NCBI RefSeq assembly: GCF_009914755.1
Contig: NC_060929.1
DNA length: 64,000 bases
Strand: one strand, 5' to 3'
From: the human T2T-CHM13v2.0 reference genome, Homo sapiens
Shown here: positions 1-58,125 of the stretch, piece by piece
How positions within the stretch are numbered: the stretch's first letter is position 1
How the letters are laid out: every line of letters starts with the position of its first letter
The notes under the pieces: generated by a model
Databases searched by the model: none
The model's input: only the letters and a program-made list of their open reading frames with translations
What the model was told of the DNA's origin: nothing
Position numbers and translations under genes: made by a program

Positions 1-1410
1 GTCAGGGCTTTTTGTCCTTGTCATATTTTTTATTGTTTTCTATATTCTTTGTTTCTTTCTTTTTTCTCTTATTGTTTGTCATTGTGGTCTGTTTTTTTCT
101 GTAGTGGCATAATTTGAGTCTTTTCTCTTTCTCATTTGTGTGTTTGATTTACCCATGAGGTTTATACTTTCATGTGTTTTCATGATGATAAATGTCTTCC
201 TTTCACTTTGAGGTTTAGAACTCCCTTTAGTATTTCTTGTAGTACCAGTCTAGTGGTGATAGATTCCCTTAGCATTTGCTTGTCTGGAAAAGAATTTATT
301 TCTTCTTCATTTATTAAGGATATTTTTGTTGGTTGTAGTATTCTTGGGTGGCAGGTTTTTTTTTTTTCAGTTAGCCTTTTAAATATTACACTCATTCTCT
401 TGGCCTATGAGGTTTCGGATGAGAAACCTACTGTTAGTTTATGGGAGTTCCTTTAATAGGCGACTAAACAATTTTACCTTGCTACTTTTGAATTCTTTCT
501 TTTTCTTTGACTTTAAACAGTTTGGCTATCATATCGGGTGAAGATACCTTTTTGTGTTTTATGTGTTTGAGGATCATTGAGCCTCCTGTATCTGGATGTC
601 TAAATATCTTACTAGACTTGGGAAGTTTTCATTTACTATTTCATCAAATAGGTTTTGTAACCCTTTTGTTTTCTCTTTGGTGTTGAGGACACCAATAATT
701 TGCATATTTTGTCATTTTATGTTGTTGTAAATGTCACAAAGACTTTGTTCAATCATTGTTATTATTTTTCAAAAGACATGTCTTCAAGTTCTAAGATTCT
801 TTCTTCTGCTTGATCTAGTCTATGGTTGAAGTTTTGAATGTATTTTGTATTTCATACAATAAATTCTTCAGTTGCAGGATTTCTATTTGGTTCATTTAAA
901 AATTATTGATCTTGTTGGCAAATTTCTCACTCATATCTTGAATTAGTTTTCTGATTTCTCTGTATTGTATTTCAGAAGTCTCTCATATCTCACTGAACTT
1001 CTTTAAAACAGCATTTTTAATGTTTTATCTGAGATTTTTCACGAATTTCTTTTTGATTGGGATCTGCTGCTGGAGAATTATTGAGTTCCCTTGGAGGTGT
1101 TGTATTTCCTCAATTTTTCATGTTTCTTGTGTCCTCATGTTGAGGTCTACCCATCTAGTGTAACAGTCGCCCCTTCTAATTATTTGGATTTGCTTTTGTA
1201 GGGGAGGACATTTTCCTAAACATGGATATACATTGTTAGTTGAGTAGCAACTTTGGCTTTGATTTTATGTCTATGCAGTAGTTTGGTCTCTGTATGACTT
1301 CTTTAGCTTTAACCAGCTTTAGTGGTTAAATCTAAATCACAGCTATCTCTGATTTCCTTGGTGGTTTATGGTGCAGTTGTTAGTGGAGGCTGTGGTGAAG
1401 TTTTGCTGAG
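1..1410 (-). mobile_element. Old L1 (L1M-type) fragment: partial 5'UTR, ORF1, inter-ORF region and start of ORF2
   Basis: Minus ORF 180-395 (CHPRILQPTKISLINEEEINSFPDKQMLRESITTRLVLQEILKGVL) matches the L1 ORF1p C-terminus; A-rich inter-ORF spacer leads to ATGACAAGG near position 24. Confidence 0.9.
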
Positions 1411-19808: not shown

Positions 19809-22049
19809 GCTTTTCTTTGAACAGCCTATTTTTGGTGAAAAGTAAAGTCCCTTTAGCAAGAAAAATTGGACAATTGACAATATCTTCCATTTCATGTGCA
19901 CATGAATCAGAAAGGTCGAGCTGATGCTCAGCTCATCCTTCAGAAGGTTGACAAGGGAGCAGATCGAGAAGGAGAAAACATGGTAAATGAAGAAAGAAAA
20001 GAGGAACAAGTGAAGAGTGAAGGAATAGGGTTCTCAGCATAGGGAGAGCTAGCCTAAGGGGGTCTTCATGATCCACTTGGAGAGGCAGGGAGTGATTAAT
20101 AATGGACTCATCCAAGAAGATTAGTAGAAACTAGGGCAGTCACGGAGAGAGGAGTGATAGGAAACTCCCCAACTTCCCATACTATGGTAACAGGTGCTCT
20201 GAGGACCATAAGGTATAGGTAGCATTTCTTCTGTGCAGATGATACAGGGGATGATATAACTTGTAAATAATCTCAGAGATAGTAAATACTGGAACAAGAG
20301 CTACAGCAATCATGTGTTCTTATTCTTAATTTTCCAGCAGAGTCACAATTTCAGATTTCTACTTAGTGGTACCCAAAGAACATTTTTATTTCTGAAACCA
20401 TGTGTTTCAACTTACTAGAAGCTATGTGTTTTGGGTCCTGGTCCAGCACTCTTTTCACTATACTTACCACCTTATCTCTCAGAGGGAGTCTGTCAGATTT
20501 TGTAACTTTGACAGATATTATTCCATAAGAGGTTTACCCAATGGATATCTAACAGGGAAGTGAAATTCTTCTCACAGTTGGTATGATTTACTCTTAAATT
20601 ATGAATGACCACTGGGCAACATATTTGAGATGGAAACTTATGTAATATGATTAAGCTATGTTCTCCAGAGTGGCATTCGTTTTACTTCAGCAATAAATAC
20701 CAGAGAAAAACAATAATTGGTTTTGTATGGAAGAACAAGGGAAGTATTTTATCTTCCTAACTCAAGTGTTGGAACATTTTGGCAGTGTGGGCGAGAAGGA
20801 TATTAGAAATAGGGCTGAAATGTAGTATATGTTAGAGAGAGAGAAAAGCCTTGGCCTCTTGCTAATCTACTTATCCTTCCGAGTGAGAATGCCACCACCT
20901 GTGATTTAGTATTTAGAAACTACTTTGACTTAAAAAATAAAAATTTAAGGAGCAGTCATTAATAATTTGGCCAAGAGGAATATCAAAGTTTGAAAATGAT
21001 TCAAGAATACAACACAACAAAATTTGAAGCAAAGCATCTTGATTGGTGAGAAATTCAAATAGGTGCAGACCATATTTGTGAATAGTAGGCTGAGGAGAGG
21101 TAGCTTGTTTTGAATGTAGGTAATACACAAAATGAAGATGCTGATTATGAACAGTAAAAGCCTTTAGAAGTTTGGTAATTTTGAACTGAAAATTACATTA
21201 GTGGGCATACTCTCTGACTTTAAAAATATGCCTTGTGGAGAATGCCTTATCTAATGAGCTTTTTGCTAGAAACAGAGTGTCATGTAAGCTGGGAATAATT
21301 AGAAAAATAGGTCTTGTAGAGAATCTCTGATTTATAGGACTTTTTGCTGAACACAGATGGTTGGGTTTCTAGAAGACTCTTATTGAATGTCTTACTAGAT
21401 AATGTAGAGGATTAAAAATTATCTCAGAGGTGCCTTTGCTCTCAAGAAGCTTATAGTCAAGTAATGAAGATAAGTCATACATGATGAGCTGATCAATCAC
21501 TTTTTGACTTTTATCTTCTTGTATTTTCTGTGTTACATATTATGTAGCCAAAATGTGTTATCTAAATTTCTACCAAATACTAAACACATTTGAACCTTTT
21601 CTCAGATTTTTCACTTAGGAAACACTTTCTTCCCCCAATCTCTGCAAACCCAAATCCTACCAAACTTTCTGGGCCAGCATGCTGTTGTATTTGGCTAAGT
21701 TAGAAGAAAAGCTTTCATCATTAAGGAGGCTGAGAAATTAGACATTGTGTTGTCAGAATCACTGTCAGCCTGGATGCTGAAGTCACTGAGAACAGTGGCT
21801 GATTGTGGAGTGAAAAGGATGGCTATGAGCAAGTGGCTGATAAAATGAAAGAAGATGGAACTGTTTTAGAAACTAGTAGAGGATGGAACACAGCGAGGAA
21901 AAGGTGACTTAAATGGAAGTTTTCCCCTTAGAAGAACAGAGGTAATTGAGGGAGAATTGCAAGTGAGTAGTTTGAGAACAATGATTGGGAAGAAAGAGAA
22001 ACTATTTTATCAGAAGCCCCAGGAGTGGGATATTCAAAACTGGATATGT

Positions 22050-38235: not shown

Positions 38236-41200
38236 TTTGTCATTCAGATATTCTAGGATCTGGCCAAACGTACTTTTCTGGGATAGAGTCTTACCATTTA
38301 TCAATATGTGCTCCAGGGTTCAGTTGAAGTAGACCAGGAGTTGTTGCTCTTTGAAAGGGCTTTCCCATCCATGTCTGTAGACTGTCTTCTCCATTCAACT
38401 CTCATTGATTTTCATGGTCAGGAAAGACCTTCTTTCTGTTTTGAACTCCCACAATTTTGTGTACTTCTTTTATGAGCCTTACTCCATAGCTTTTATGTTT
38501 ATGACATAGCTTCCTGCTAGATAGCATCTTGAGGGCAAGGGTTTGTCTTATTTATCCATTTTACCTCTGATAGTGAATATCTAAGAATTAATATAATTTT
38601 ATTTGGTTCATACTCACCTCCATTGAATTTGTTACAGTTTGGAAGCGTCAACCTCACACAATCAAGACACCGGACTTTTTAGATCTTCTTCCTTTTCTCT
38701 AGCCTAAGTATAGTTGCAATATTCTTATTCTTGGTAGACAGGGAGTTAAAATGATCATCAGGCCTCTGTGACCTCAGTGGAGAAAAAGATAGACCAGTAG
38801 CAACTGGGCCTTTAGGGAGCAGTGACAGTAGGTTACTCTTTTTCTATGGCAGTGACTGGCCACATCACCACCTTGAATTGGAGCAGGGGGAGGAAAAAAG
38901 AACTGATGCAAAGTATAGATAAGCAAACTGGTAGAGAGCCCACTGAGCAAAGTCTTTGGACTCCCAGATCTATTTGGGAAGAATTGGAAGGAGACTTGAG
39001 TTTTCGTGAAACAGGTGAGGTTAAGCTGAAGAAATATTTTTATAAGGCTGCATTTGTGTTCCAGGTTTTACCCCTGGCATGGTGTGCATGGTAAATATAA
39101 ATCACCTACATTATATTTTATTTGTTTCCCAAAATGCACTATAAATGTCCTCCAGGAGAGAGATCCTAACCCTATAAGACTTTTGAGCTGCATGGTTAGG
39201 GAAGCACAGGTCCCTCCTGGAGTGGGATTAGGAGCTGGGGTGCTATAGCAATATGACATTGCAGAACCTGTCACCAGGTCTAAAATGCCAGCTCACCTTA
39301 ACAGCTGTGGTAGGTGGCACCAGCCTTTTTTCCAAGGGTAATTGGTTCTGGGGTTCAAACTGCAGTTGCAACTGTGAGAAGTGGCAAACTCTCAGCTAGA
39401 TTAACCTCATCAGCATTAACGAGAGCACCAGGACTTTTCCAACCTGATAGGGAGCTAGGGTCCAAATCTTGCCATTAATTGTTTTAATTGTTTTCAGCAC
39501 TTGGCCTAGCTATTTTCCATGGAGCTTTTCAGGAGGCCAATCTCATCTGAAAGGTCAGCCTACAGGAGTCAGATCTTAGACAAGTCATCCCCTATCTCTC
39601 TTGCTTTCTAAGCACATGAAGTTAAAAATGTTGAAAATGCTTTATTGCCTTTTTATCTAGGATTTAAATATTTCATTCTGCTTGTACAATGCTTAGCTCT
39701 GTAACAGTCACAACTGAGTTCTTAGTTTTCTTTTAACTTAAAAACTTGTATTTTTTCTTACTACAAATGTAATAGTGCTCAATAGAAAAACTGAAAAATT
39801 CGGATAAGATTAAAGAAGAAATTAAAACAGAAGTAGTATTCTTCAACAGCATTTTTCCCTCTTTCTCTCTCTCTCTCTAGAAAAAAAATACAAATATACA
39901 CACAAATGTATAAATGTGTATATATACATTTGTGTGTCTATTATAGACTGTAGGCTTCATATAAAATGATATCAGATGTTTGAATATTGATGGTTACACA
40001 TAGGAATTTCATTCACATGGATGTGAATAGATATGACAACCTTGGATAATATTAGGAGTTATTTATGGTTAGATTATTTAATTAGATTACTTATGGAATT
40101 AGGTGAGAAGCTTTTGCAACCCAAAATAAAGAAGGCCCACATAAATAGTAGAACAGTTTTGGTGACAATCAGTTAAATATTAAAAGAATTATAAAGCACT
40201 GAGATAATTCTATCAAATAATAATCTTACTAATTAAGAAATTGTGTCTAATGATACAGAAAGCCCATACTATCTGAAAAGCAATCATATGACAAGGGTTA
40301 CCATGAGATAATGACTTGCATCATGCCAAATAGGTTCAATAATGTAGTGGACATCTTTTTCTATGTTGGCTAAGGCTCTTAGGTATGTCAGCATAACTGA
40401 AAAGAACCTCAAACTGGAGTTTTGCTGTTCTGTTTGGGGAGAAAACACTTTGTTGGGCAGAACTCCTGAGAGTTAGCTTATTAAGCCTTATTAATAAGCA
40501 TATAATTAATTATTTATAATAATTGTTTACTGTTAATTAATAGTTAATAATTATTAAGCATATTATTAATTAATGCCTAAGGAGTTACGATTCTTTTCTT
40601 TAAGGAAAGGAGTTTGGGCACAATTTGTGTTGGATAAAAGCATGTTGTTTGAGAAAGCATAATTAAAATGAATTTCAATTTGTCTTTCTTATAATTGAAG
40701 GTTTTTAAGAAAAATGTAAGTCACAGGAAAAACACTGACTTCCAACTATGTAAAAAGAAAATCACATGAATGAATGAAAGGAGTAATTTGTTGGGGGAAG
40801 ATGAGGCAATTCTTTGACAATGCAGAGAAATCATCAAAATGCTGTTCTTGAATGGCAAAATTTCTTGGTGGCTGCCCAGCTTATATGGCATATCATTGAT
40901 ATTTAAGATTATTGTTATTGACAGTGCATGGGTTCTGGACAAAAGCACTGCCTTGAGAACTGAAATTTAAATTAAACCACTTCCTAACACTGAAGAAATG
41001 ATGGCTTTTAAGAGTGCCAAAATGACTCAAGATGAGCTGCCTACAAAGAACTTGAAAAAAGCAATTTCAAAGTTGCCTTCAAGATAAAATTTTGCAAAGG
41101 ATGAGTAAGATATTTTAGATAAAAAGTTCATTTTCTTGAGTAATTTGACATCTGGTATGTGAAGAGCTTATTTATATAGAATGCGATATGTAGAATTAAG

Positions 41201-41540: not shown

Positions 41541-42329
41541 CTAGGAATCAAACAACATTTTTTTTCCTAAGAGATTCTGAGAGCAATATTGCCTCTCTAG
41601 GAGAGTAAAATGTATATATTTTTGGTATGTTTTGCTGTTTGAGGCCTTCCAACTTTATGTATGTGTTCTGGTTAACTAAAGAGTTACAAGCAAAAATAAG
41701 TTACACAAAAATAAGTGAGTCTTTTATTATTTACCTTTTCCAGGAAAAGCTTCTCTATAATTACTTTGAAAATCTTAAAAAGGTCCAGTGCCAACCAGCT
41801 GTTAAGATTTTTGGCCATTGTTAGATAAATCCACAGAAAAATGAGAATATTGTTTGAACCTAATTTAATATTTAAATCTATTTGCAGTTTATTGACATTG
41901 ACAAGTAGAAAGATTATTTGGAATTTTTCTGAATTGATGATATAAGCAAACACAACATAACTAAGTGCTCTTAAATTTTAACTTGTTTGTATTGTACTCT
42001 GTAAAATGCTGTACACTATTTTCATTGTGTAATGCTAGATTTCACTGGCACTCACTTTATCTGTGGTATCTGAATAACACTAGCTGTGACATATCATGGT
42101 CGAATTTATTATTTTTTCTTTTACATGTGGTGAAAATTTGATTACATGGGTTTGAATCCAAATTTTTTGTTTCTTATTCCTCATCAAACAAGTATTTGTA
42201 TTTTAATTTTTTGCTTAGCAAGAATCTAGCCTGATTAATTTACTCTGGGTTCTTGTGTAATATGTGAGGCCTAGATAATGAAGTTTGCTGACTTTGTCAC
42301 AGGTCTGCTTATTCTAGTGCATCTTTCCT

Positions 42330-43080
42330 GCTGACATTTGTCAAATCTCTGCCATTAGGTCGTTCTTTAAGTATCATTATCAGCTCATGTTGGTGACTCC
42401 ACATTACAAATATTGTGCCTATGAGTGTTAACAACTCATATTTCTGAATGGTGCAAGTTTTGTTAGTGAGCATGGTCCTGAGGAAATGGATGGGAGAAGA
42501 ACTATGTTTTGATCGGGATTTGAGATAGGACAGTTTGGACATAAGTGGCTGCCCCAAAGGCTGTTGAATGTGGCACATTTGCATGAGCACATAACCCATT
42601 TGTGTTTTTTTGTGACCCCCATCTTCTTTCTTCCCTGTCTCCTCTCAGAGGTAGCTGTTATCCTGAAATTTGTGTTTCTCATTTCCTTAAGGGTTACAGC
42701 TTACCATGTTTAGTTTTGCATGCTTTTGGATTTTGTGGAAATGGAGTCATAATTTGGTAACTTACTTTTATAACTGAACATTATGTTGGGTTCCTGAGAT
42801 TCATTCACGATAATGTGTATAACTGTGGTTTATTCATTTTTAATGCTATTATTGTATTAATTGAATATGCAACAATTTATCTATGAACATATTTAGATTT
42901 ATCTATAAGTATGCATACTTATAGATATAACCCTTGATATTTTAGGCTTTAAGATTTTTGGTAGTCTGATGGGTATCTCACGGTGGTTTAAATGTTCAGT
43001 TTTTCAATTATAGTTAAAATTGTGATTTGTTTCATGTTTATTGTCAAGTTGTGGTTTTCTTTGTGTCCTTCATAAACAAC
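42330..43080 (-). mobile_element. Old L1 (L1ME/MC-like) 3' fragments
   Basis: gaggtagctgttatcctgaaatttgtg...ctgagattcattcacg...ggtatctcacggtggtttaaat. Confidence 0.6.
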
Positions 43081-43549
43081 AACTTTTGCCTCATTTCAAA
43101 AGGAATAGTTTTATAACAGAAGTTTGCTTTGGAAAATTGCTCATTCTTTTATAATCTTATGCTTTTCACAAAGAAGTTTCTTAAAGAAGCTTGATGAATT
43201 TTTAACTCGAAAATACTGCCAGCATGGTAAGTTTTGTTAGAATTTTTTTTTTTTTTGGTGATCTTTAAGTTCAATTTAGGTTAATTCTCAAGTAAGTATG
43301 TTGATTAAAATGAAAAATTTTAAGTTGAAATTGCTTTTATGAGTTTCTTAAGATGTGTTTTGATGCATTTACTTTGTGAGATACGTTTGATGTAAGAAGT
43401 GGTTTTCACGGGATCAGTAACTGCAATTCTGGCACCCTTTTTCTTCTCTGTAGTGTGAATAGAAAAGTAGCTGCTGTTTCAATGTGATGTAAATATGTCA
43501 CTGGGGATTGTTTATTGTTTTTCTATTTCTTTAATATGTCATATTAAAG

Positions 43550-44610
43550 AGACATCATTATGTGGACAGCTGAGTGATGTCCTCAGTATTTCTATATGGT
43601 TGTCTCAATTTGTACTAAGACTTACCCCACCACTCCTTGTTGCTTGTGTCATTTTTGCTTGTTAGAATGAGTGGTCCTCTTATAAGAAACTCTAGCTGAG
43701 TATGCTTTAATTTGGCAGGTAAGAGCTCATTAGCTCTAGAACAAAAATTATTTGGTTTTAAGTCTCCCCAAATCACCAAATCAAAGCCATTTAGGCAGAT
43801 TATTCTTGGCCTTTGGTCATGCTTCCTTAGTTCTGAATTGCTAGAAATCCCTTGTGTATGCTCCATCTCTTGAAGAAGGGCAGTGAAAAAGAGAAATCTT
43901 TTTCTCCTAGATGATCTTTCTTGTATAAAAATGACTTTCAAATTTGCCTATGTTTGGCAGCCAATTTCTTTCTATATATTTAAAAAAAAACTCCGAAAAT
44001 ATCTACATCCTCCAATTTTCATCTTTATTTTGTTATAATCTGTCCCATCATCTTAGAGCAGTCTTCTAAATTTCTAGTAGAAATTACTATTTACTATTTC
44101 TAGTAGTAAAATCTTTTCAGCCTTTATTCTATAAAATACCAACACTTCAATATAAATTCCTTATATGGAATCAGGGCACATATGTTGTAAATAAACTCAG
44201 AATTGCTATTCTTATTTGAAATATAGAAGGCGATTACATGAAGGAATCACATCTTGTATATTGTTTAGATGATCTAAACCACAGCATCTCATATGTAGTT
44301 TCATAAAAGTTGTGGGTACATTAGATCGCGTTGATGTCCTGCTTTCAAACTGCAGACATGAGAAGTAGATGCTTAAATAAGAAAACATTTACTGTAATTA
44401 TAGAAATAGAGGATGAGAAAACCCCGGGTGGCTGCTGTGCTCCTCACCTGGCCCCTCCTGGGAAATACAGAAAAAGAAAAATGAGGGATCAGGAGAGAGC
44501 CTGGACACAGCCCTAGGCTAGGATTTACGAGAAGTAAACAGCTTCTGACCTGAACTTGAAATTCTAGCATCTGTCTCTCACAGAGAGGCAAACACGTTCG
44601 AGTTCTATAA
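43550..44610 (-). repeat. Left arm of ancient inverted duplication
   Basis: Reverse-complement homology to 47460-48400: clear at 44020-44610, weaker outward. Confidence 0.85.
43626..43868 (-). other. Candidate 243-nt exon with an open frame
   Basis: Acceptor tttctctttttcactgcccttcttcaAG, donor GG|GTAAGT, stop-free frame (part of track ORF 43615-43941); product not recognised. Confidence 0.3.
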
Positions 44611-45274
44611 CATTTCTTTACAGTTCTCTTTAATAGGCAGGCCTCTCTCATTTCAGTATCTTGACACAAGCTCAATTCTCAGTTACTCTTTATGTCTTAG
44701 TTCAAATATTACTTCCTCATTGAGATATTCCCTGATTACTGAAGAAAGGCTTGGGTATCCCTTTTCTAGCTCCCTGGGCATGTTTCATATACATCTAATG
44801 ATCAAAGGCACTCTTTCCATAGTCTTTTGCAGAACTCTACTTGAGTTTCTTCTCAAAACAAAGCAACAAACTCCCAAACCTGTTTTGTGATCAATAATTA
44901 GAAAAAACTCTACACTCTAGACTTCTATTACATATTTCTTATGCACATTTGAGTATTAAAGGCCCTGAGAAGTAATTAAGGAAAGAAATTTGTTTTTATT
45001 CAATGTTTCCAGAATTAATTGACCATGAAACATGTCTTTTGAGAAATATCTGCCTACAGATTCCTCTGAAACAAGGGTAGGAAATGTCTTATTGTGTTGT
45101 GATTTGTTTTCTTTGTACTGCCTCTCTGCTAGACCATAATTATTTCTATCATCAGTGCTGGGTCCAGTGACTGGCACATAGTAGGCCCTTAATGAAATTA
45201 TTTGCTAAATAGAAACATGGGAGAGAAGATGGTAATGATTCCTATGTTTGAAGCTAGGGTAGCTAGCATGGTAA

Positions 45275-45720
45275 TTTGTTGTTGCATAACAAACCACCCT
45301 AAAATTTAGTAGCATGAAACAACTTTTGTTTTAAATGCTCCTGTTGTTGTGAGTTTGGAATTCATAAAACGCACACTGGGGACAACTCCCCTCTGCTTCA
45401 TGACTTCTAAGGTTTTTCCTGTGAGGATGCAAATGACAGGGGTACCCAGAATGGGTGGAGGCTGGGAGGGTTGGGCTGGAAGAACTACTTCCAAGATGGT
45501 CTCATAACTCACAGGAGAGGCTGGACCACCTACCTATGGCCTCTCCAGCATGGCAAACTTAACATTGTTGGACATTTTGCCTCAGGGCTCCAAAAACACG
45601 TGTTCCCAAAGACCAAGGAAGAAACTGCAGAATTTTTTTTTAATTACTAAGTCTGAGAAATCTCAGGTATGTCAAAAAATCTGTAGCAAAGGTTCAAACT
45701 GCCACAGAACTTCTGAGGAT
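45275..45720 (-). mobile_element. MaLR LTR (MLT1F/G-like)
   Basis: ttgttgcataacaaaccaccctaaaatttagt...ttccaagatgg...ggcctctccagcatggc. Confidence 0.78.
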
Positions 45721-45769
45721 AGGGATGCCACTAATTGACATAAGGGATTCAGGAGAAAAGAGACTTTGC

Positions 45770-46330
45770 TGAGTAGCAGAGAGTGTGTAAGTGTGAGACA
45801 CACATGAGCAACCAAGTGGAGAGACCAGGGGCAGTTGGGAGAATGTATCTGGAGCTTGGGAGAGACATGGGAGTTGAAAATGAGGGCTGGGTTTATACCA
45901 TGTGGGTTGACACTGCAAGCATAAATGAAATTCTCTAGGGAGACTTTGCAGAGAAGGAGAGGAAAAAAGGCTCGGATACATGGGTAATGCCAACATTTAT
46001 GGGGAAACTGAAGGAAATGGAGCAGGGAAGGGAGCTTAGAAACTGCAGCCACAGATCGGGGAGCAGTAGGACAGAGCGGTTCTGAGCAACCCAGGCAAGA
46101 GTTTCAAGAGCGCGCTGGTCACCAGCGTCACATGCCTCAGAGAAGTCAAGAGACCTGAGAAGTGTCCATTGGATTGATCCGGCAATTATGGAATCTTTTA
46201 TTAATAGTAAGGATATTTTGGTGAGGAGGGATGGGTGGGGACCAGAGGCGGCAGAGGTGGGTGGAGATAGGGTGGGATGGGGGAGTTGTAGGAATGGGGT
46301 TTGTGGCTGGAAGATGCAGGGTGGGGCTGA
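45770..46330 (-). mobile_element. L2 fragment
   Basis: gtatctggagcttgggagag...agaagtcaagagacctgagaagtgtccattggatt. Confidence 0.65.
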
Positions 46331-47459
46331 GGGAGGAAGCAGATTGAGTGAAGATGGGCTCCACTTTCACAGTTGGGCTCCATTCTGGTGGTGAGAGTGC
46401 CGTTTCTCTCCCTGAAAAACCCTTTCCTTGTGATTTCGCTGGAGAGTCACATGGCACCTCATTCACAGTTGTTCAAAATGTGTAAAAGTCATTGAATGGA
46501 AAAAAGCTTTTAGGAGCACAAGGCAGCCAGGACTGATCACATAATGGCCCAAACATGTGACACATCTGTAGATAACACTGAAGCCACAGCCAGTAACAGC
46601 TCTGGAATCTGCCAGGGAGTAGCCGCTGTGAAGAGCAAATACATTTCCTCTGTTTGGCATCTGCTGGCTGCTGAGAAGGGCAGTTAGCAAAGTCAGTTTT
46701 CCTGAAGGGTTAAGAGTCATGAAGGCTCTGTTATTACAGAGATATGTTCACATATGGGGAGTGAATAAGAACTGTTGGCACAGGGAAATGTTATGTCACC
46801 TTACACATCCTACTAGTCCTCCAGACATTTCTCTTTCAGGAAAAGGCAAATGCAATCCTACAAAAGAAACAATTTTTTTTCAATATTTTCAATTTTGTGG
46901 GAATTTAATGTGACTGTTGGAAAAAATGTGTTACAGTTGATAAACTGTAATTAAACAAATGAATATACATAAAAGAATTAGAATAGTGCTTGTTCTAAGA
47001 ACAAAGACCACATGAATGTAAAGCATTATTATTAACATCATATTATTATTATGTTCTAGCTTTAAATACAGGATTACAGTTCAATTTGAAGGAATTTTTT
47101 CTTTTTTTGTTTTCTGCATTTCATGATAGATAAATTTCATATTTTGGGCTTTTTCAAGAAATATTTTAAAGATGGGAGTAAAATTAGTTTACCATGAAGT
47201 AAGAGCCATTACCCGAAAACAGAGTAACAACAATCCATGTGTACTCAAAATAAATACTAAATTTGACAACTAAGTGGGTGTATCTAACCTAAGTGGATGT
47301 CTTTTGTGGCTGGTGGGCTTTGATTTCAGTGACTTGTTTTTTGACTCTGAATATCCAGCTTGAGAAGGCATCCCTTTAGGAAGAGTGGTGTGCTCAAATG
47401 ATAAAATGTATGGGTGTAAAGTGATCTGACTTGAAGGCCTACTGAAAATTAGGAGCCCC

Positions 47460-48400
47460 ATTGTACAGCTCTGGTCTCTTTTGCTCTCTTGGAGAGAGAG
47501 AATGCTAGCAAGTTCAGGTCAGAAGCTGTTTACTTACTAGCAGATCCTAGCCTGGGGCTGTGTCCAGGCTCTGTCCTGATTTCTCATTTTTCTTTTTCCT
47601 GTGTTTCCCAAGAGGAGCCAGGTGAAGAGCATGACAGCCGCCTAGGGAGGTCTAAGGTGGGATCTAAGGGGATTATCTTAGTCCTTTATTCTTATTCTGA
47701 CAATAAAATCTTGTCTTACCAAAATCTTCTTCCCATGCCTTTACTTTGAAAGTAGGATTCCAATTTGATTCAGAGCTCACAAAAATTTGATATAAATCCA
47801 CATCAAGCTGTGGATTACAAGCTAGGGTAAAAGTAGAAGATGTGATTTTTGACTTCAAGAAGTTCACAATATATTTCAGATAAGAATGAAGACCACAGCC
47901 ATATATATAATATATTTGTAGATGAAATATATGTTCACTTGGAAACATAAAGTGTTTATTTTGAAATATAAGTTGTTTTATCTGAAAAATAGTAGGAGAT
48001 TTATATAAGCTTGGAAGGATGTTTTAGGAAGGTGGGATAGACTATGGTGGAATAAATGTAGATGTGGAGTAATTATATGTGGAGTAACTATATGTAGAAT
48101 AATTAATTAGAGACAAAGGCTTGTTTTAAAAAATTGTTCCATTAGAAATAGGCTTTCAAAGTATTTTGGACAGAAGTAATTTTGGGCAAACTAAAAAGGA
48201 GCATAGGTACAATTAGTCAATCTCATGAATGCAATCACTGTTTTTTCTTTTACTTTAAAAAAAAATTTTTTTAGCACTTTTCTAAGTTGAGGACCAAGTT
48301 GAAATGGTCACCTGTTGTGGTAAGAAGGGATGTTTTGGCCTGACAGATATATGGACTTGCAATTCTAGAGAACATAAGTAGGGTGGTCTCTGATCTTTAA
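47460..48400 (+). repeat. Right arm of ancient inverted duplication
   Basis: e.g. caagttcaggtcagaagctgtttactt (47509-47535) is the exact reverse complement of 44532-44558; further collinear blocks to ~48060 and beyond. Confidence 0.85.
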
Positions 48401-49394
48401 GTATAGAGGATTTAATTTAATCACAGGGACAAGCAATGTGTTTTGCACATGGCAGGTGTTCAGTAAGTGCTTGTTGTTCATAATGTAACTCACTTCTGAA
48501 TTTGTAAGGGTTTCATTGATCCTAAATTCCTAAAATGCCTTTTTGTTCTCTTGGTTTTTGTGCTTTCTGACATTGAACTGAGTCTTAGATCTTCTTCGGG
48601 CTGTGCATGCATGTTTGAAAACCTCCTAGGAGCTGTAATGCTATGCTTATATTGGGAAAATGTCATAGATATGGGTATTTCCTTCTGCTGCCTAGAAAAA
48701 TAAAGCCTGCAGTAAGATTTTCTGTCTTTACGTATGAATTCAGGTGATATGTCTCTGAATATTGGTCTTCAGTAATTTTCAAGACTAAGGTCTCTTACCT
48801 TCCATAATGATATGGAAGTCAGCTGTTTCTAAAACTCAGTTTTGTGAGACTTAGAACAGAACTAGTTTCTAAGGAATTCTTATGTCTCTGAAACCCATGT
48901 CCCTGTTGGTCTAGCAATTAGATTTGGGGGTCTTTAAGTAATGAGGCAAGACCTATTGGTGGTTAGTAAGCATTAGTAGTAAACTCAACTGTTGAAGTGA
49001 AATTTTGGCAAGATCAAATGGAGTACCAGATTATTTCTAAATTAATTTTTGATTATCCAGACCAATGGAAATGCACCAAGAGACCAAGGAATATTACAGG
49101 GGAAAAAGAAACTCACTCACTCATTCTATCAATCGATCATCTATATACATATATGTATATATTCCACACACATACTCTTAGAATTTGAGTGACTCCAGAA
49201 AGAAAATAATGTACCATATTGGGCTTCACATCTACAATATTTATATCCATATTAGCCATCATTAATAGTAGCAATATTTTACAGGGGGCAGGAAATTGGT
49301 GATCAATGAGATAATTTTTACCATCATGGTGGACCATGTACAAGATGGTGATACAAGATACTATACTCAGTTAATGGTCCAAAGAAAAGTAAGT

Positions 49395-49750
49395 TCAATG
49401 TAGTAGTCACTAGCCTTGTGTGGCTACTGAGCACTAAAATGTGGCTAGTGAAATTGAGGAACTAAATTTTAAATTTTATTTGATTATAATTATTTTAAAT
49501 AAAAAACCTGGCAGTTGGTTTAGTTATTGGAAAATTTTTATGCATGTTTGAAACAACTTGGTCATATCAATTTATTTTTTAACTGTAAGTTTTATGAAAT
49601 CCAAATATAGAGCAAATATTTCCTATGAAAATTTAGTATCTGAATTGAGGTGTGCTATATGTGTAAAACATGCCCTGGATTTTGGAAACAGTACAAAAAT
49701 ATAAATTATCTTATTAATAATCCTTTTACATTTGATATGATAATATTTAT
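49395..49750. mobile_element. MER33 (hAT-Charlie)
   Basis: cactagccttgtgtggctactgagcact...aatgtggctagtg...gaaaatttagtatctgaattgaggtgtgct. Confidence 0.85.
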
Positions 49751-49944
49751 CATCTCAATTTACATATCTTATTCACTAGGAAATGACGGAGCAACTGAAG
49801 ATTTTTGAAAAAGGATATTTTATGGGGGCTAATTTTGTTTTATTTGAATGGAGATTATTGAACAGCCAACCAGTTAGGATAATATGATATTCATGGTGTA
49901 ATGAGGGCCTGATTTCAACTGAGTGGTGTTACTGGAAACAGATC

Positions 49945-50165
49945 TAATGATAATAATGAGAATAATGATGGCTAATACTTATTAAATGATTATTTTGTGC
50001 CAAGAATTATGCTAAATATTTTGTATGAGTTATATAACCCTCATAATTCATCTTTGAGGTAGCTGCTATTGTCCCCATTTTACAGCTGAGGAAAGTGAAG
50101 AACATAAGTTAAACAACTTGACCAAGATCATACAACTGGTAAGAGGTGATGCTAGAATTTGGCTG
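49945..50165 (-). mobile_element. MIR
   Basis: ccccattttacagctgaggaaagtgaag...aacttgaccaagatcatacaactggtaag. Confidence 0.88.
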
Positions 50166-56271: not shown

Positions 56272-58125
56272 ATTCCTTTATTGTTGCAATCTTACATGGA
56301 AAACAGACTATATAGCTACTTGAAAGTGTAGTGCAATTCTTCCAATTTAAATCTGTTTTTTGATTCAGTTACATTTCTTTCAGATTCTGGGCAATTGAAA
56401 TCTTGCTTTGTTCTATATATTAAGCCTACAGAAATGTAGAAAAGCCATGGCCATTTTGTTTTTCCTTCAGTTACTTAAGTTTGCTCATAGTTTTAACCCT
56501 TTTTTTAGGGGTGGGAAACGGGGACTTTACTATGATGAATATGTCACAACAAATGCATGTTAAAAATCATATTTGAGAATAATCCTGTTAGATTAAGTGA
56601 TATCAAATTAGACAATGCTAAATATTTACACATTTTGGAATGTAGGATTCTGTTTTTTTAATGTTATTGACTATACTTTCTAAGGTGCCACTTGTCAAAC
56701 TTATTTCTAGGAGTCAACAAATGCTGTTAATTTCCAGATTTATAACATACAGTCTTGAAACACTATAGTGGTATCTTTTGTCAGAACAAAGTACTAGTTG
56801 ACAATTCAAAGAAATACCTTTTTCTGAATGGTGTATTGTTAAGAGGAAATACTTGTGAACAAAAGGTGGAAATCACCGAACTAGGAATCAGGTATCACAG
56901 GTTGAGAACAAGAGTAGTGAATAGAATATATGGGCAAAGTCTAACGGCTTGAATGACAGCTCAAAGACAAGATGGGATTTCACCCATTTTCAAAACATTA
57001 CTTTTGTGTTCTACTTTAAAGTACCTGGCTGTCTCTCTTTAATTCAAATGATAGTAAATATTCAGTGCCTCAGCATATATATGAGCTTCCATTTGTTCAA
57101 GGGTGGTAGAAGTATTCATGTTTTACTGGACTTCATTCAGGAACTAGATCCTTTAAAAAGATTCACATTCTAAGATGTATTTTACAGATTATAGATCTAT
57201 AATTTATAGATTAGTTCTTTACATGTATATGCTGTAACTGTTTTATTTTTCCTCATTGAAAATACTAGGATTGTGAAATAGAGACAAAATATAGTCAAAT
57301 CTAAGGTAATCAAATTATTAATCTACCTCTAATAGCTAAGGTCAAGAAATACAAACACCTGTTAATATGTTAAGGTATGTAAATAATCAATTCTGCCTAT
57401 TTAATTCTGAAAATATTCATAGAAATATTTTATACTCCCCCTTTGTAAAGGTGCTCTTTAATCAAATTCATCTGTAATCATCTATCTAAGTATTACTAAT
57501 TAGGGCAGTTCTAGAGACCTGAAACACCCTTGCAATACTACTGTAAAAAATCACTAGGTAATTTAAAGACACGTATTATTTTGAGTGATGACTTTGTGAA
57601 TGAAAGATAAATATCACATTATCAGGAAGCAAATACCCAGGAGGAGATAATGCAAAGTAGGGAAAAAGACTACAAATTTGAAAGCTATCTCAAAAACACA
57701 ATTTGGGGCAATTATAACCTATAATTTCTCTTTTGGGGCAGTGGCAAATCAAACTAATACAGGACCAGGTTACACAAAATGAAATAACATGGGTTTTGGG
57801 TGGAAGTTGAGATAAGATTTTGGAGTTGAAGATTATTTTTATAATAGGAATTTTATTTATTTTACTGAATAATTAGACTACAAGAAAAGTTGGCTTAAAT
57901 TATAGTCTATCACAAAATTTTAATAGATGAAATTAAATAGAAAATTAGTATAATGAGAGATGTCATCCTCAAAATATTTAAACAAATAACTTGTGAATGT
58001 TTCCTATAAGGTAGATTAAAATGAAAGTAACAACAAAATTATTCTTCTGTGATGAGTTTAAACACTTCAGCAATTACTTTATCTGAGTAAACTTCTATTT
58101 CAGTGTCTGAATATTCTCCTTGCAG

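What the first reader, a model, noticed from the sequence alone, without database searches (positions are those of the whole stretch)
43550..48400. Ancient ~1 kb inverted duplication of apparently unique sequence with a sharply conserved core
Seen: the arms ~43550-44610 and ~47460-48400 are collinear reverse complements around a ~2.85 kb spacer. Matching blocks (left arm vs reverse complement of right arm) include attcttat(t/c)tgaaatata, aatcacatctt, tcct(g/a)ctttcaaa and gagcctggacacagccc. The block ttagaagactgctctaagatgatgggacagatta (left, minus strand) vs ttggaaggatgttttaggaaggtgggatagacta (right, plus strand) differs mostly by transitions. Similarity is patchy in the outer arms but high at 44425-44570 / 47500-47645. 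I match the arms to no repeat family. Inference: an old head-to-head duplication whose core has been held by selection or arm-to-arm conversion. It could act as twin regulatory modules, or as a long-range RNA duplex if transcribed through.
Basis: partly seen in the sequence, partly recalled or inferred. Interest (0 to 1): 0.8.

Follow-up and report, generated by a model that had tools for sequence, protein, structure and literature searches.

The report
Old inverted duplication with conserved core
Two roughly 600-base copies of a sequence found nowhere else in the human genome face each other across 2.9 kb in the gene desert beside FGF10; most of each copy has decayed, but a 170-base GC-rich inner end stays about 87% alike, probably because both copies are working regulatory DNA.

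Summary
The inverted repeat is real but shorter than claimed. The arms are 43990-44592 and 47480-48085 (416 of 642 columns identical; score 136 against 14.7±1.5 for shuffles). They sit around a 2,887-bp spacer. No homology is detectable further out, to 43550/48400.

Identity steps sharply at about 44438/47631, from 58% to 85% (likelihood ratio 43.5; largest of 500 permutations 19). An old transposon pair in the same window, also 61% identical, shows no such step (ratio 3.0).

In the 3.1-Gb T2T genome both arms hit only themselves and each other. Two core words with up to 3 mismatches occur only twice each. The same tool gave 6,651 candidates for the control repeat. This is therefore a local duplication of unique sequence, not two insertions of an abundant repeat.

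The outer arms look neutral (K2P 0.43). The cores have about 50% GC against 30% outside and share collinear E-box, GAAA-repeat, forkhead and nuclear-receptor half-site words.

My best reading is twin cis-regulatory modules about 430 kb 3' of FGF10. Gene conversion without function is not excluded. No other species' genomes were on hand, so conservation is untested. The finding is moderately interesting.

The parts
43990..44592 (+). Left arm of the inverted duplication (603 bp)
   Evidence: Local alignment with the reverse complement of 47480-48085: 416 of 642 columns identical, score 136 against 14.7±1.5 for shuffles; E 9e-53.
47480..48085 (-). Right arm of the inverted duplication (606 bp), homologous on the minus strand
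   Evidence: In the whole genome it matches only itself and the left core.
44422..44592 (+). Left conserved core (171 bp, GC 0.51)
   Evidence: 87.9% identical to the right core in ungapped columns, 15 transitions to 5 transversions, K2P 0.135; change point at 44438. Holds CACCTG at 44445, GAAANNGAAA at 44470, GTAAACA at 44534 and TGACCT at 44546.
47480..47647 (-). Right conserved core (168 bp, GC 0.49)
   Evidence: The same motif words occur in the same order on the minus strand, at 47619, 47589, 47527 and 47516.
44532..44558 (+). 27-nt stretch identical in both arms (partner 47509-47535 on the minus strand); contains the forkhead-type word and a nuclear-receptor half-site word
   Evidence: pair I3, 100%. 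With up to 3 mismatches it occurs only at these two places in 3.1 Gb, and the backwards control gives 0.
47648..47672 (-). 25 nt present only in the right arm, exactly at the outer edge of the core; looks like a small local tandem duplication
   Evidence: Gap in the alignments.
44593..47479 (.). Spacer (2,887 bp) with no arm-to-arm homology
   Evidence: Inner extension tests scored 17 against 13.3±1.5 (maximum 18) and 13 against 11.3±1.3. None of the 11 longest open frames (93-143 aa) overlapping the arms and spacer matches Pfam.
45269..45400 (+). Fragment of an interspersed repeat inside the spacer (the label 'MLT1-type LTR' is my recollection only)
   Evidence: 19 of the 20 genome matches of the spacer query fall on this stretch, at 70-90% identity, on many chromosomes.
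45925..46490 (+). Unique GC-rich, G-skewed centre of the spacer (GC up to 0.60; G-quadruplex-like run at 46259-46283)
   Evidence: 45640-46760 matches only itself in the genome.

Best explanation
A roughly 600-bp piece of unique non-coding DNA was duplicated locally in inverted orientation, probably around or before the radiation of placental mammals. Since then the outer 430 bp of each copy has drifted like neutral DNA.

The inner 165-170 bp of each copy faces the spacer. It is GC-rich and dense in transcription-factor-type words (E-box CACCTG, a GAAA-repeat, forkhead GTAAACA, TGACCT/AGTTCA half-sites). It has stayed about 87% alike, most likely because both copies are under purifying selection as cis-regulatory modules.

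The two would then be a redundant or cooperating enhancer pair in the gene desert about 430 kb 3' of FGF10, binding the same factors.

Shown here: the duplication, its extent, its uniqueness, the step in identity, the composition and the shared words.

Inferred: the age, selection as the cause, enhancer function, and FGF10 as the target.
For: 1. The duplication is real and far above chance.

2. It is not an abundant repeat.
- Both arm queries gave 2 of 2 candidates, self and partner, even at E<=10.
- Two core words with up to 3 mismatches occur exactly twice each in the genome; the backwards controls give 0.
- Positive control: the other inverted pair in the window (227-944 / 1457-2154) gave 6,651 first-look candidates and 70 matches at 63-78%.
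- A two-sequence nhmmer profile of the arms found 0 hits at E<=10 in a 259.7-kb sample of the genome. The control profile found 2 copies outside its own pair (E 4e-25 and 2e-11). Single-sequence queries gave the same picture.

3. The core is an outlier and the outer arms are not.
- Change-point ratio for the full arms is 43.5 (largest permutation 19.0), and the best 150-column window of the full arms is 85% identical.
- The outer arms alone give 4.8 and the control transposon pair 3.0. Their best 150-column windows are 65% and 67%.

4. Composition. The cores have GC 0.51 and 0.49 against 0.30 and 0.31 in the outer arms. Only 2.9% of 170-bp windows in the 64 kb reach 0.49. Neutral sequence in this AT-rich desert would be expected to lose that GC (inference).

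5. Four motif words are kept in the same order in both cores. Their assignment to factor families is from general knowledge, not from a call.

6. One-base and five-base indels inside the core argue against coding. No Pfam match in 0 of 11 frames.

7. Argument against conversion alone (inference): conversion efficiency rises with the length of homology, yet the longer outer part decayed fully while the shorter core did not.

8. Location. FGF-domain exons lie at C5:44558597-44558776 and 44564005-44564112 on the minus strand, 428.5 kb from the right arm. That these are FGF10 is my recollection of the 5p12 map. The hub's table lists no gene within 100 kb.
Against: - No cross-species comparison could be made, so purifying selection is not shown.
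- Core divergence is strongly biased to transitions (15:2 in 44422-44558). A K2P of about 0.14 would equally fit one conversion event some tens of millions of years ago followed by neutral decay.
- The core's outer edge coincides with a 25-nt indel and its inner edge with the end of homology. Conversion tracts would be expected to stop at such places.
- High GC could come from GC-biased conversion.
- No functional element is annotated on either core. The RefSeq enhancer at 43440-43609 lies outside the verified arm.
- The motif words are short and were picked by eye.
- Both cores are CpG-depleted (2 and 1 against about 10-11 expected), so they are not CpG-island-like.
Confidence: 0.5

Rival explanations
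1. The core has no function. It was homogenised by arm-to-arm gene conversion, either continuing for a long time or as a single event tens of millions of years ago. GC-biased conversion raised its GC, and it has been decaying neutrally since.
For: - The core is bounded on one side by the non-homologous spacer and on the other by a 25-nt indel, which are natural stops for a conversion tract.
- Core GC is 0.50 against 0.30 outside.
- Differences in the core are mostly transitions (15:2) and are spread without clear clustering. The longest identical run is 27, against roughly 20 expected by my own estimate, which was not run as a call.
- K2P is 0.135-0.14.
- Conversion between the arms of palindromes is well known on the sex chromosomes (recalled, not read here).
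Against: - The 430-bp outer part offered more homology yet decayed to the level of a neutral old repeat pair.
- A late single event would have needed recombination between arms that were already about 25-30% diverged, which is very inefficient (general knowledge).
- The collinear cluster of motif words and the compositional island are what a regulatory module looks like.
Confidence: 0.25
2. The arms are two copies, or the long terminal inverted repeats, of a very old, now low-copy or unrecognisable mobile element. The pairing is therefore not a local duplication of host sequence.
For: - The overall shape, two inverted arms around an internal segment with a total of 4.1 kb, resembles a DNA transposon with long terminal repeats.
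- The genome search is blind to very old families. A stretch in the right flank (48380-48560) that I recall as MIR-like gave no hit in the whole-genome search and only 1 hit at E<=0.01 outside itself in the 259.7-kb sample.
Against: - No other copy was found in 3.1 Gb by BLAST-type or word searches, and none in the sample with a profile.
- The only two recognisable copies lie 2.9 kb apart.
- None of the 11 open frames (93-143 aa) has a transposase or any Pfam match.
- No target-site duplication is visible at 43989/43990 and 48085/48086.
- The best-kept part is at the inner ends, not the outer tips where transposases bind.
Confidence: 0.08
3. The core is a structured RNA gene present in two convergent copies. 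Alternatively, the two cores pair as a long-range duplex in one transcript.
For: - Each core folds better than shuffles on the homologous strand (z -2.35 and -2.59) and less so on the other strand (0.14 and -1.25).
- The consensus fold is below the column-shuffled nulls, with z -2.98; 2 of 300 shuffles reach it.
- Seven one-sided changes keep predicted pairs and none of the 34 pairs is broken.
- The excess of transitions would suit G-U tolerance.
Against: - The antisense alignment folds just as well (z -3.14, 2 of 300), so the signal is not strand-specific.
- 0 of 34 pairs show a compensatory double change, and two sequences give little power.
- The structure was predicted from the same sequences it is tested on.
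- Rfam has no match in the cores at E<=1 and none at gathering score in the whole window. There is no tRNA.
- The hub's table lists no annotated transcript.
Confidence: 0.07

Closest known systems
IgH 3' regulatory region quasi-palindrome (enhancers hs3a and hs3b as inverted copies flanking hs1,2); PMC4757795, abstract and passages read
   Same: Two copies of one regulatory element lie in inverted orientation around a central non-repeated segment. In that system the intervening sequence is poorly conserved while the arrangement is kept in mammals.
   Different: The IgH palindrome spans more than 25 kb, and its function and the role of its architecture were shown by mouse deletions. Here the unit is 4.1 kb. 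Nothing is shown about function, about conservation of the arrangement, or about an element at the centre.
Duplicated conserved non-coding elements (dCNEs) of vertebrate developmental genes; PMC2781166, passages read
   Same: A non-coding element that is otherwise unique in the genome is present in two diverged copies near a developmental regulator.
   Different: dCNEs as defined there lie beside paralogous genes and date from the early vertebrate whole-genome duplications. This pair lies 2.9 kb apart at one locus, is inverted, and by its neutral flanks looks much younger (mammalian). Its conservation in other species is untested.
Shadow (redundant) enhancer pairs (recalled; no paper read here)
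   Same: Two nearby modules with the same binding-site content could drive overlapping expression of one gene.
   Different: Most described shadow enhancers are not recognisable sequence duplicates. Activity here is untested.
Sex-chromosome palindromes kept alike by arm-to-arm gene conversion (recalled; no paper read here)
   Same: Inverted arms around a spacer, with part of the arms kept alike.
   Different: Those arms are tens of kilobases to megabases long and more than 99.9% identical throughout. Here only about 170 bp stay at about 87% and the rest is at the neutral level.
Two inverted copies of an interspersed repeat, as at 227-944 / 1457-2154 in this same window
   Same: An inverted pair with about 61% identity and a similar length.
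   Different: That pair belongs to a family with thousands of copies and has a flat identity profile. The finding has no other copy and has a sharp core.

Membership tests
Multicopy interspersed repeat (two independent insertions) | Other copies elsewhere in the genome | tested here: not met
   The arms hit only self and partner (2 of 2 candidates). Core words with up to 3 mismatches occur twice only. A profile found 0 hits in a 259.7-kb sample. The positive control gave 6,651 candidates.

Limit: families as old as MIR, or with few copies, could be missed. Dfam was not available.
DNA transposon with long terminal inverted repeats | Transposase remnant between the arms | tested here: not met
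   0 of 11 open frames (93-143 aa) overlapping the arms and spacer match Pfam at E<=0.1. Very decayed frames would escape this test.
DNA transposon with long terminal inverted repeats | Target-site duplication and best conservation at the outer tips | tested here: not met
   No direct repeat flanks 43990 and 48085, though the boundaries are fuzzy. The best-kept part is at the inner ends.
Duplicated conserved non-coding elements (dCNEs) | Each copy conserved across vertebrates or mammals | not testable with these tools
   Only the human genome and prokaryote genomes are held.
Duplicated conserved non-coding elements (dCNEs) | Copies lie beside paralogous genes (definition in PMC2781166) | tested here: not met
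   Both copies lie 2.9 kb apart at one locus.
Quasi-palindromic enhancer unit (IgH 3'RR type) | Inverted copies of one element around a central segment | tested here: met
   The spacer is 2,887 bp with a unique GC-rich centre.
Quasi-palindromic enhancer unit (IgH 3'RR type) | Enhancer activity of the copies and a functional role for the inverted arrangement | not testable with these tools
   Needs chromatin data, reporter assays and deletions.
Conversion-maintained palindrome | Arms group by species rather than by arm in a cross-species tree | not testable with these tools
   No other species' genomes are held.
Conversion-maintained palindrome | Near-identity along the whole arms | tested here: not met
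   The outer 430 bp are 67% identical in ungapped columns, K2P 0.43.
Known structured RNA family (Rfam), microRNA or tRNA | Match to a covariance model, or a tRNA fold | tested here: not met
   No match in the cores at E<=1. 0 matches at gathering score in the window. 0 tRNAs.
Protein-coding exon pair | Frame kept open between copies; domain match | tested here: not met
   One-base and five-base indels lie inside the core. 0 of 11 frames match Pfam.

The most novel reading that the evidence does not exclude
The whole 4.1-kb unit may be one conserved architectural regulatory device of the FGF10 landscape. It consists of twin inverted cores around a unique GC-rich centre prone to G-quadruplex formation. 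[quoted passage not shown]
Probability: 0.1. Interest if true: 0.6.

Novelty: new member of a known kind. Interest (0 to 1): 0.35.

Why it matters
If both cores prove to be constrained and active, this would be a clean natural case of an enhancer born by local inverted duplication. The decayed flanks of the same duplication would serve as a built-in neutral yardstick. That allows direct estimates of the duplication's age and of the strength of constraint on each copy. It also allows a simple test of redundancy by single and double deletion, in the landscape of a gene needed for limb and lung formation. If the core turns out to be held by conversion alone, it is a small curiosity of genome dynamics. 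Either way it is not a new kind of element.

Tried and rejected
- **Extension of the arms** to 43550/48400 and further out, and into the spacer: not above shuffles.
- **Abundant repeat family:** rejected for abundant families (with the positive control). Not excluded for very old or rare families.
- **Coding sequence or transposase relic:** 0 of 11 frames match Pfam.
- **Known RNA families and tRNAs:** none. The only hit was MIR395 at 47849-47948, E 0.33, 22.9 bits against a threshold of 56, which I treat as chance.
- **RNA structure.** There is a modest fold signal, but it is equal on both strands and has no compensatory pairs. At the DNA level I found 0 inverted repeats in the left core and one 11-nt pair at 91% in the right core.
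- **CTCF-type site in the core:** by eye only, with a poor match that is not kept in the right arm. No call was made.
- **Covariance model.** I built a sequence-only model of the two cores (R1) to search the genome more sensitively. The tool does not take a model for this genome, so it was not used.
- **Larger genome sample.** I worked with the 200 kb already held.
- **Literature.**
  - 0 papers hold a 19-nt piece of the core.
  - 0 papers hold 'chr5 4387'.
  - 0 papers hold Fgf10 + Nnt + enhancer + TAD.
  - Two broader FGF10 searches (30 papers, 434 papers) were seen as listings only. No listed title or abstract start concerned this locus.
  - One search for inverted duplicated conserved elements gave 1 unrelated paper.
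  - These searches cover the held library only, and supplements were not opened. Published lists of conserved elements or enhancers may well contain these coordinates.
Full report
**What is there**

An inverted-repeat scan of 42500-49500 gave 50 pairs. The three longest are collinear and form one core: 44470-44531 / 47537-47598 (62 nt, 89%), 44422-44481 / 47588-47647 (60 nt, 78%) and 44532-44558 / 47509-47535 (27 nt, 100%).

A sensitive blastn of 42000-46000 against 46001-50000 returned 42 alignments. Only one is strong: 44001-44592 against 48078-47480 on the minus strand, 64.7% over 632 columns, E 9e-53. The next best has E 0.018.

A gapped local alignment places the arms at 43990-44592 and 48085-47480. 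It has 416 of 642 columns identical and a score of 136. One hundred shuffles gave 14.7±1.5, maximum 19.

The arms do not extend further.
- The next 690 bp outward on the left against the next 715 bp on the right scores 11, against 12.6±1.4 for 200 shuffles.
- The next segments out score 13 against 14.6±1.7.
- The two inward tests score 17 against 13.3±1.5 (maximum 18) and 13 against 11.3±1.3.

So the arms are about 600 bp, not about 1 kb, and the spacer is 2,887 bp. The RefSeq 'enhancer' at 43440-43609 lies outside the verified left arm.

**The step in identity**

| Part | Columns | Ungapped identity | Transitions : transversions | Gap columns | K2P |
|---|---|---|---|---|---|
| Outer arms (43990-44421) | 468 | 67.4% (58% counting gaps) | 63 : 68 | 66 | 0.43 |
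| Core (44422-44592) | 174 | 87.9% | 15 : 5 (15 : 2 in 44422-44558) | 9 | 0.135 |

A two-rate change-point model puts the step at 44438/47631 with a likelihood ratio of 43.5. The largest of 500 permutations was 19.0 (all).

The same window supplies a negative control. The pair 227-944 / 1457-2154 is also inverted and 61% identical over 736 columns. It has a flat profile, with ratio 3.0, a best 150-column window of 66.7% and a longest identical run of 12. The outer arms of the finding taken alone look the same: ratio 4.8, best window 65.3%, longest run 11. The full arms reach 85.3% in their best window and a run of 27.

The outer arms therefore behave like old neutral DNA, and only the core stands out. 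The 'patchy' similarity of the outer arms needs no special explanation.

**Unique or repeat?**

The window's whole assembly (3.1 Gb, T2T) can be searched.
- The left arm matched only itself and the right core (84% over query 438-603). The right arm matched only itself and the left core, even at E<=10. Each search had 2 candidates, both scored.
- The invariant 27-mer, and a second 29-nt core word, with up to 3 mismatches, each occur once forward and once reverse in the genome, both at this locus. The backwards-read controls give 0.
- The control inverted pair at 200-2200 gave 6,651 first-look candidates. Forty were scored and 70 matches at 63-78% identity were returned, on many chromosomes. The tool therefore does see old interspersed repeats.
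- As a more sensitive check I took 200 kb from two other chromosomes plus the rest of the window, 259,701 bases in all. Single-sequence nhmmer gave 0 hits at E<=10 for either arm, the core or the spacer centre. A two-sequence profile of the arms also gave 0. The control profile found two further copies (E 4e-25 and 2e-11).

Limits of these tests:
- A stretch at 48380-48560 that I recall as MIR-like was not found by the whole-genome tool. It had only one hit at E<=0.01 outside itself in the sample. Families of MIR age, or rare families, could therefore be missed.
- A 391-bp stretch around the spacer repeat fragment also found 0 hits in the sample, so the sample has little power for some repeat families.
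- Dfam was not available.

Even so, the only two recognisable copies in 3.1 Gb lie 2.9 kb apart. That points to a local duplication rather than two insertions.

**The spacer and flanks**
- 19 of the 20 genome matches of the spacer fall on 45269-45400, at 70-90% identity. This is a fragment of an interspersed repeat. The label 'MLT1-type' is recollection only.
- The centre, 45640-46760, is unique. It holds the most GC-rich stretch of the window, 46081-46490 with GC up to 0.60, marginally above the 0.594 of the masked repeat at about 22000. It has a strong G skew and a G-quadruplex-like run at 46259-46283.
- Both outer flanks are unique by the same search.
- None of the 11 open frames of 93-143 aa overlapping the arms and spacer matches Pfam at E<=0.1.
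- No direct repeat flanks the outer ends.

**What the core looks like**
- It is 0.51 and 0.49 GC in a 0.30 surround. Only 2.9% of 170-bp windows in the 64 kb reach 0.49.
- It is CpG-depleted (2 and 1 against about 10-11 expected).
- Four factor-type words are kept in the same order in both copies: CACCTG (44445 / 47619-), GAAANNGAAA (44470 / 47589-), GTAAACA (44534 / 47527-) and TGACCT next to AGTTCA (44546, 44551 / 47516-, 47511). Reading these as E-box, IRF-like, forkhead and nuclear-receptor half-sites is general knowledge, not a test.
- Indels of one and five bases inside the core rule out a conserved reading frame.

RNA structure gives a weak, ambiguous signal.
- Each core folds below its shuffles on the homologous strand (z -2.35 and -2.59), but not clearly on the other strand (0.14 and -1.25).
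- The consensus fold has 34 pairs, with 7 one-sided changes, 0 compensatory changes and 0 broken pairs.
- Against column-shuffled alignments the consensus energy gives z -2.98 for the sense strand and -3.14 for the antisense strand. In each case 2 of 300 shuffles reach it.
- Rfam finds nothing and ARAGORN finds no tRNA.

**Where it lies**

FGF-domain exons sit at C5:44558597-44558776 and 44564005-44564112 on the minus strand. From my memory of the 5p12 map these are FGF10. The right arm is then 428.5 kb beyond the gene's 3' end, in the desert towards NNT. The hub's table gives no gene within 100 kb. By my recollection of FGF10's GRCh38 position the locus would be near chr5:43.87 Mb in GRCh38. 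This is unverified.

**Age (inference)**

The outer-arm distance of 0.43 is about that of old eutherian-wide repeats. The control family's copies are 71-78% alike, and its two local copies are 61% alike. With recalled human-lineage rates this suggests a duplication of roughly 100 million years or more. Alignment optimisation makes 0.43 a lower bound.

**Selection or conversion?**

This cannot be decided without other species, and none is held.

For conversion:
- The core is bounded by the spacer and by a 25-nt right-arm-only insert (47648-47672).
- It has high GC.
- Its differences are mostly transitions, with a divergence that would fit a reset some tens of millions of years ago.

For selection:
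- The longer outer part had more homology to offer and still decayed to the neutral level.
- A late conversion would have had to act between arms that were already about 25-30% diverged.
- A sharply bounded, GC-rich, motif-dense block is what a regulatory module looks like.

I put about 0.5 on twin constrained regulatory modules and 0.25 on conversion without function. Relics of an old mobile element get 0.08 and an RNA role 0.07. The remainder is left unassigned.

**Compared with what is known**

The nearest described arrangement is the quasi-palindrome of the IgH 3' regulatory region. There, inverted copies of one enhancer (hs3a and hs3b) bound a palindrome of more than 25 kb around hs1,2, and the architecture itself matters for somatic hypermutation (PMC4757795, abstract and passages). 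The present unit shares the shape only.

Duplicated conserved non-coding elements are defined as copies beside paralogous genes, dating from early vertebrate genome duplications (PMC2781166, passages). This pair is local, inverted and apparently much younger, so it is not a member of that set.

I found nothing in the held library on this locus. Searches were seen as listings only, and no supplements were opened.

**Verdict**

This is a real, old, local inverted duplication of unique non-coding sequence with a statistically sharp, well-kept 170-bp core. The arm length was overstated. It is most likely a duplicated enhancer-type element in the FGF10 desert. The cause of the core's preservation is open. 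It is a new example of a known kind and of moderate interest.

Noticed in passing
window 227-944 and 1457-2154: A second inverted pair (61% over 738 columns, E 5e-40, spacer about 510 bp). It belongs to an abundant interspersed repeat family: 6,651 first-look candidates and 70 matches at 63-78%. Its identity profile is flat. I used it as the control. The family was not named.
   Followed up: yes
window 45925-46490 (centre of the spacer): The most GC-rich stretch of the window (GC up to 0.60, marginally above the 0.594 of the masked repeat near 22000). It is strongly G-skewed, unique in the genome, and has a G-quadruplex-like run at 46259-46283. No Pfam match in its frames. What it is remains unexplained.
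   Followed up: partly
window 45269-45400: A fragment of an interspersed repeat inside the spacer, with 19 other genomic matches at 70-90%. The spacer was therefore once shorter. The family name (MLT1-type) is recalled only.
   Followed up: partly
window 47648-47672: 25 nt present only in the right arm, exactly at the outer edge of the conserved core. It reads like a small tandem duplication of about 11 nt.
   Followed up: no
window 42900-42927: A perfect 28-nt AT-rich palindrome (14+14, no spacer), about 1 kb left of the left arm.
   Followed up: no
window 39893-39942 and 57132-57260: Two further self-complementary stretches (50 nt at 84%; 132 columns at 64%) in the window's self-comparison.
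   Followed up: no
window 48380-48560 (minus strand): A stretch that I recall as MIR-like. The whole-genome search did not find copies. nhmmer found one copy at E 1e-3 and three weaker ones in 259.7 kb. This shows the limits of the copy-number tests for very old repeats.
   Followed up: partly
window 44570-44590 and 47482-47500: Each arm ends at the spacer with a pyrimidine run followed by its complement (CTCTC-nnn-GAGAG type mini-palindrome). On the inward-reading strand this also resembles a splice acceptor, with a CTGAC branch-point-like word about 34 nt upstream. This was seen by eye. No transcript is annotated.
   Followed up: no
whole window: Only 13 self-similar pairs at E<=1e-3 in 64 kb, and only 3% of the window is masked in NCBI's file (hub's table). 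The region seems poor in young repeats, as regulatory deserts of developmental genes often are. Not quantified against the genome.
   Followed up: no
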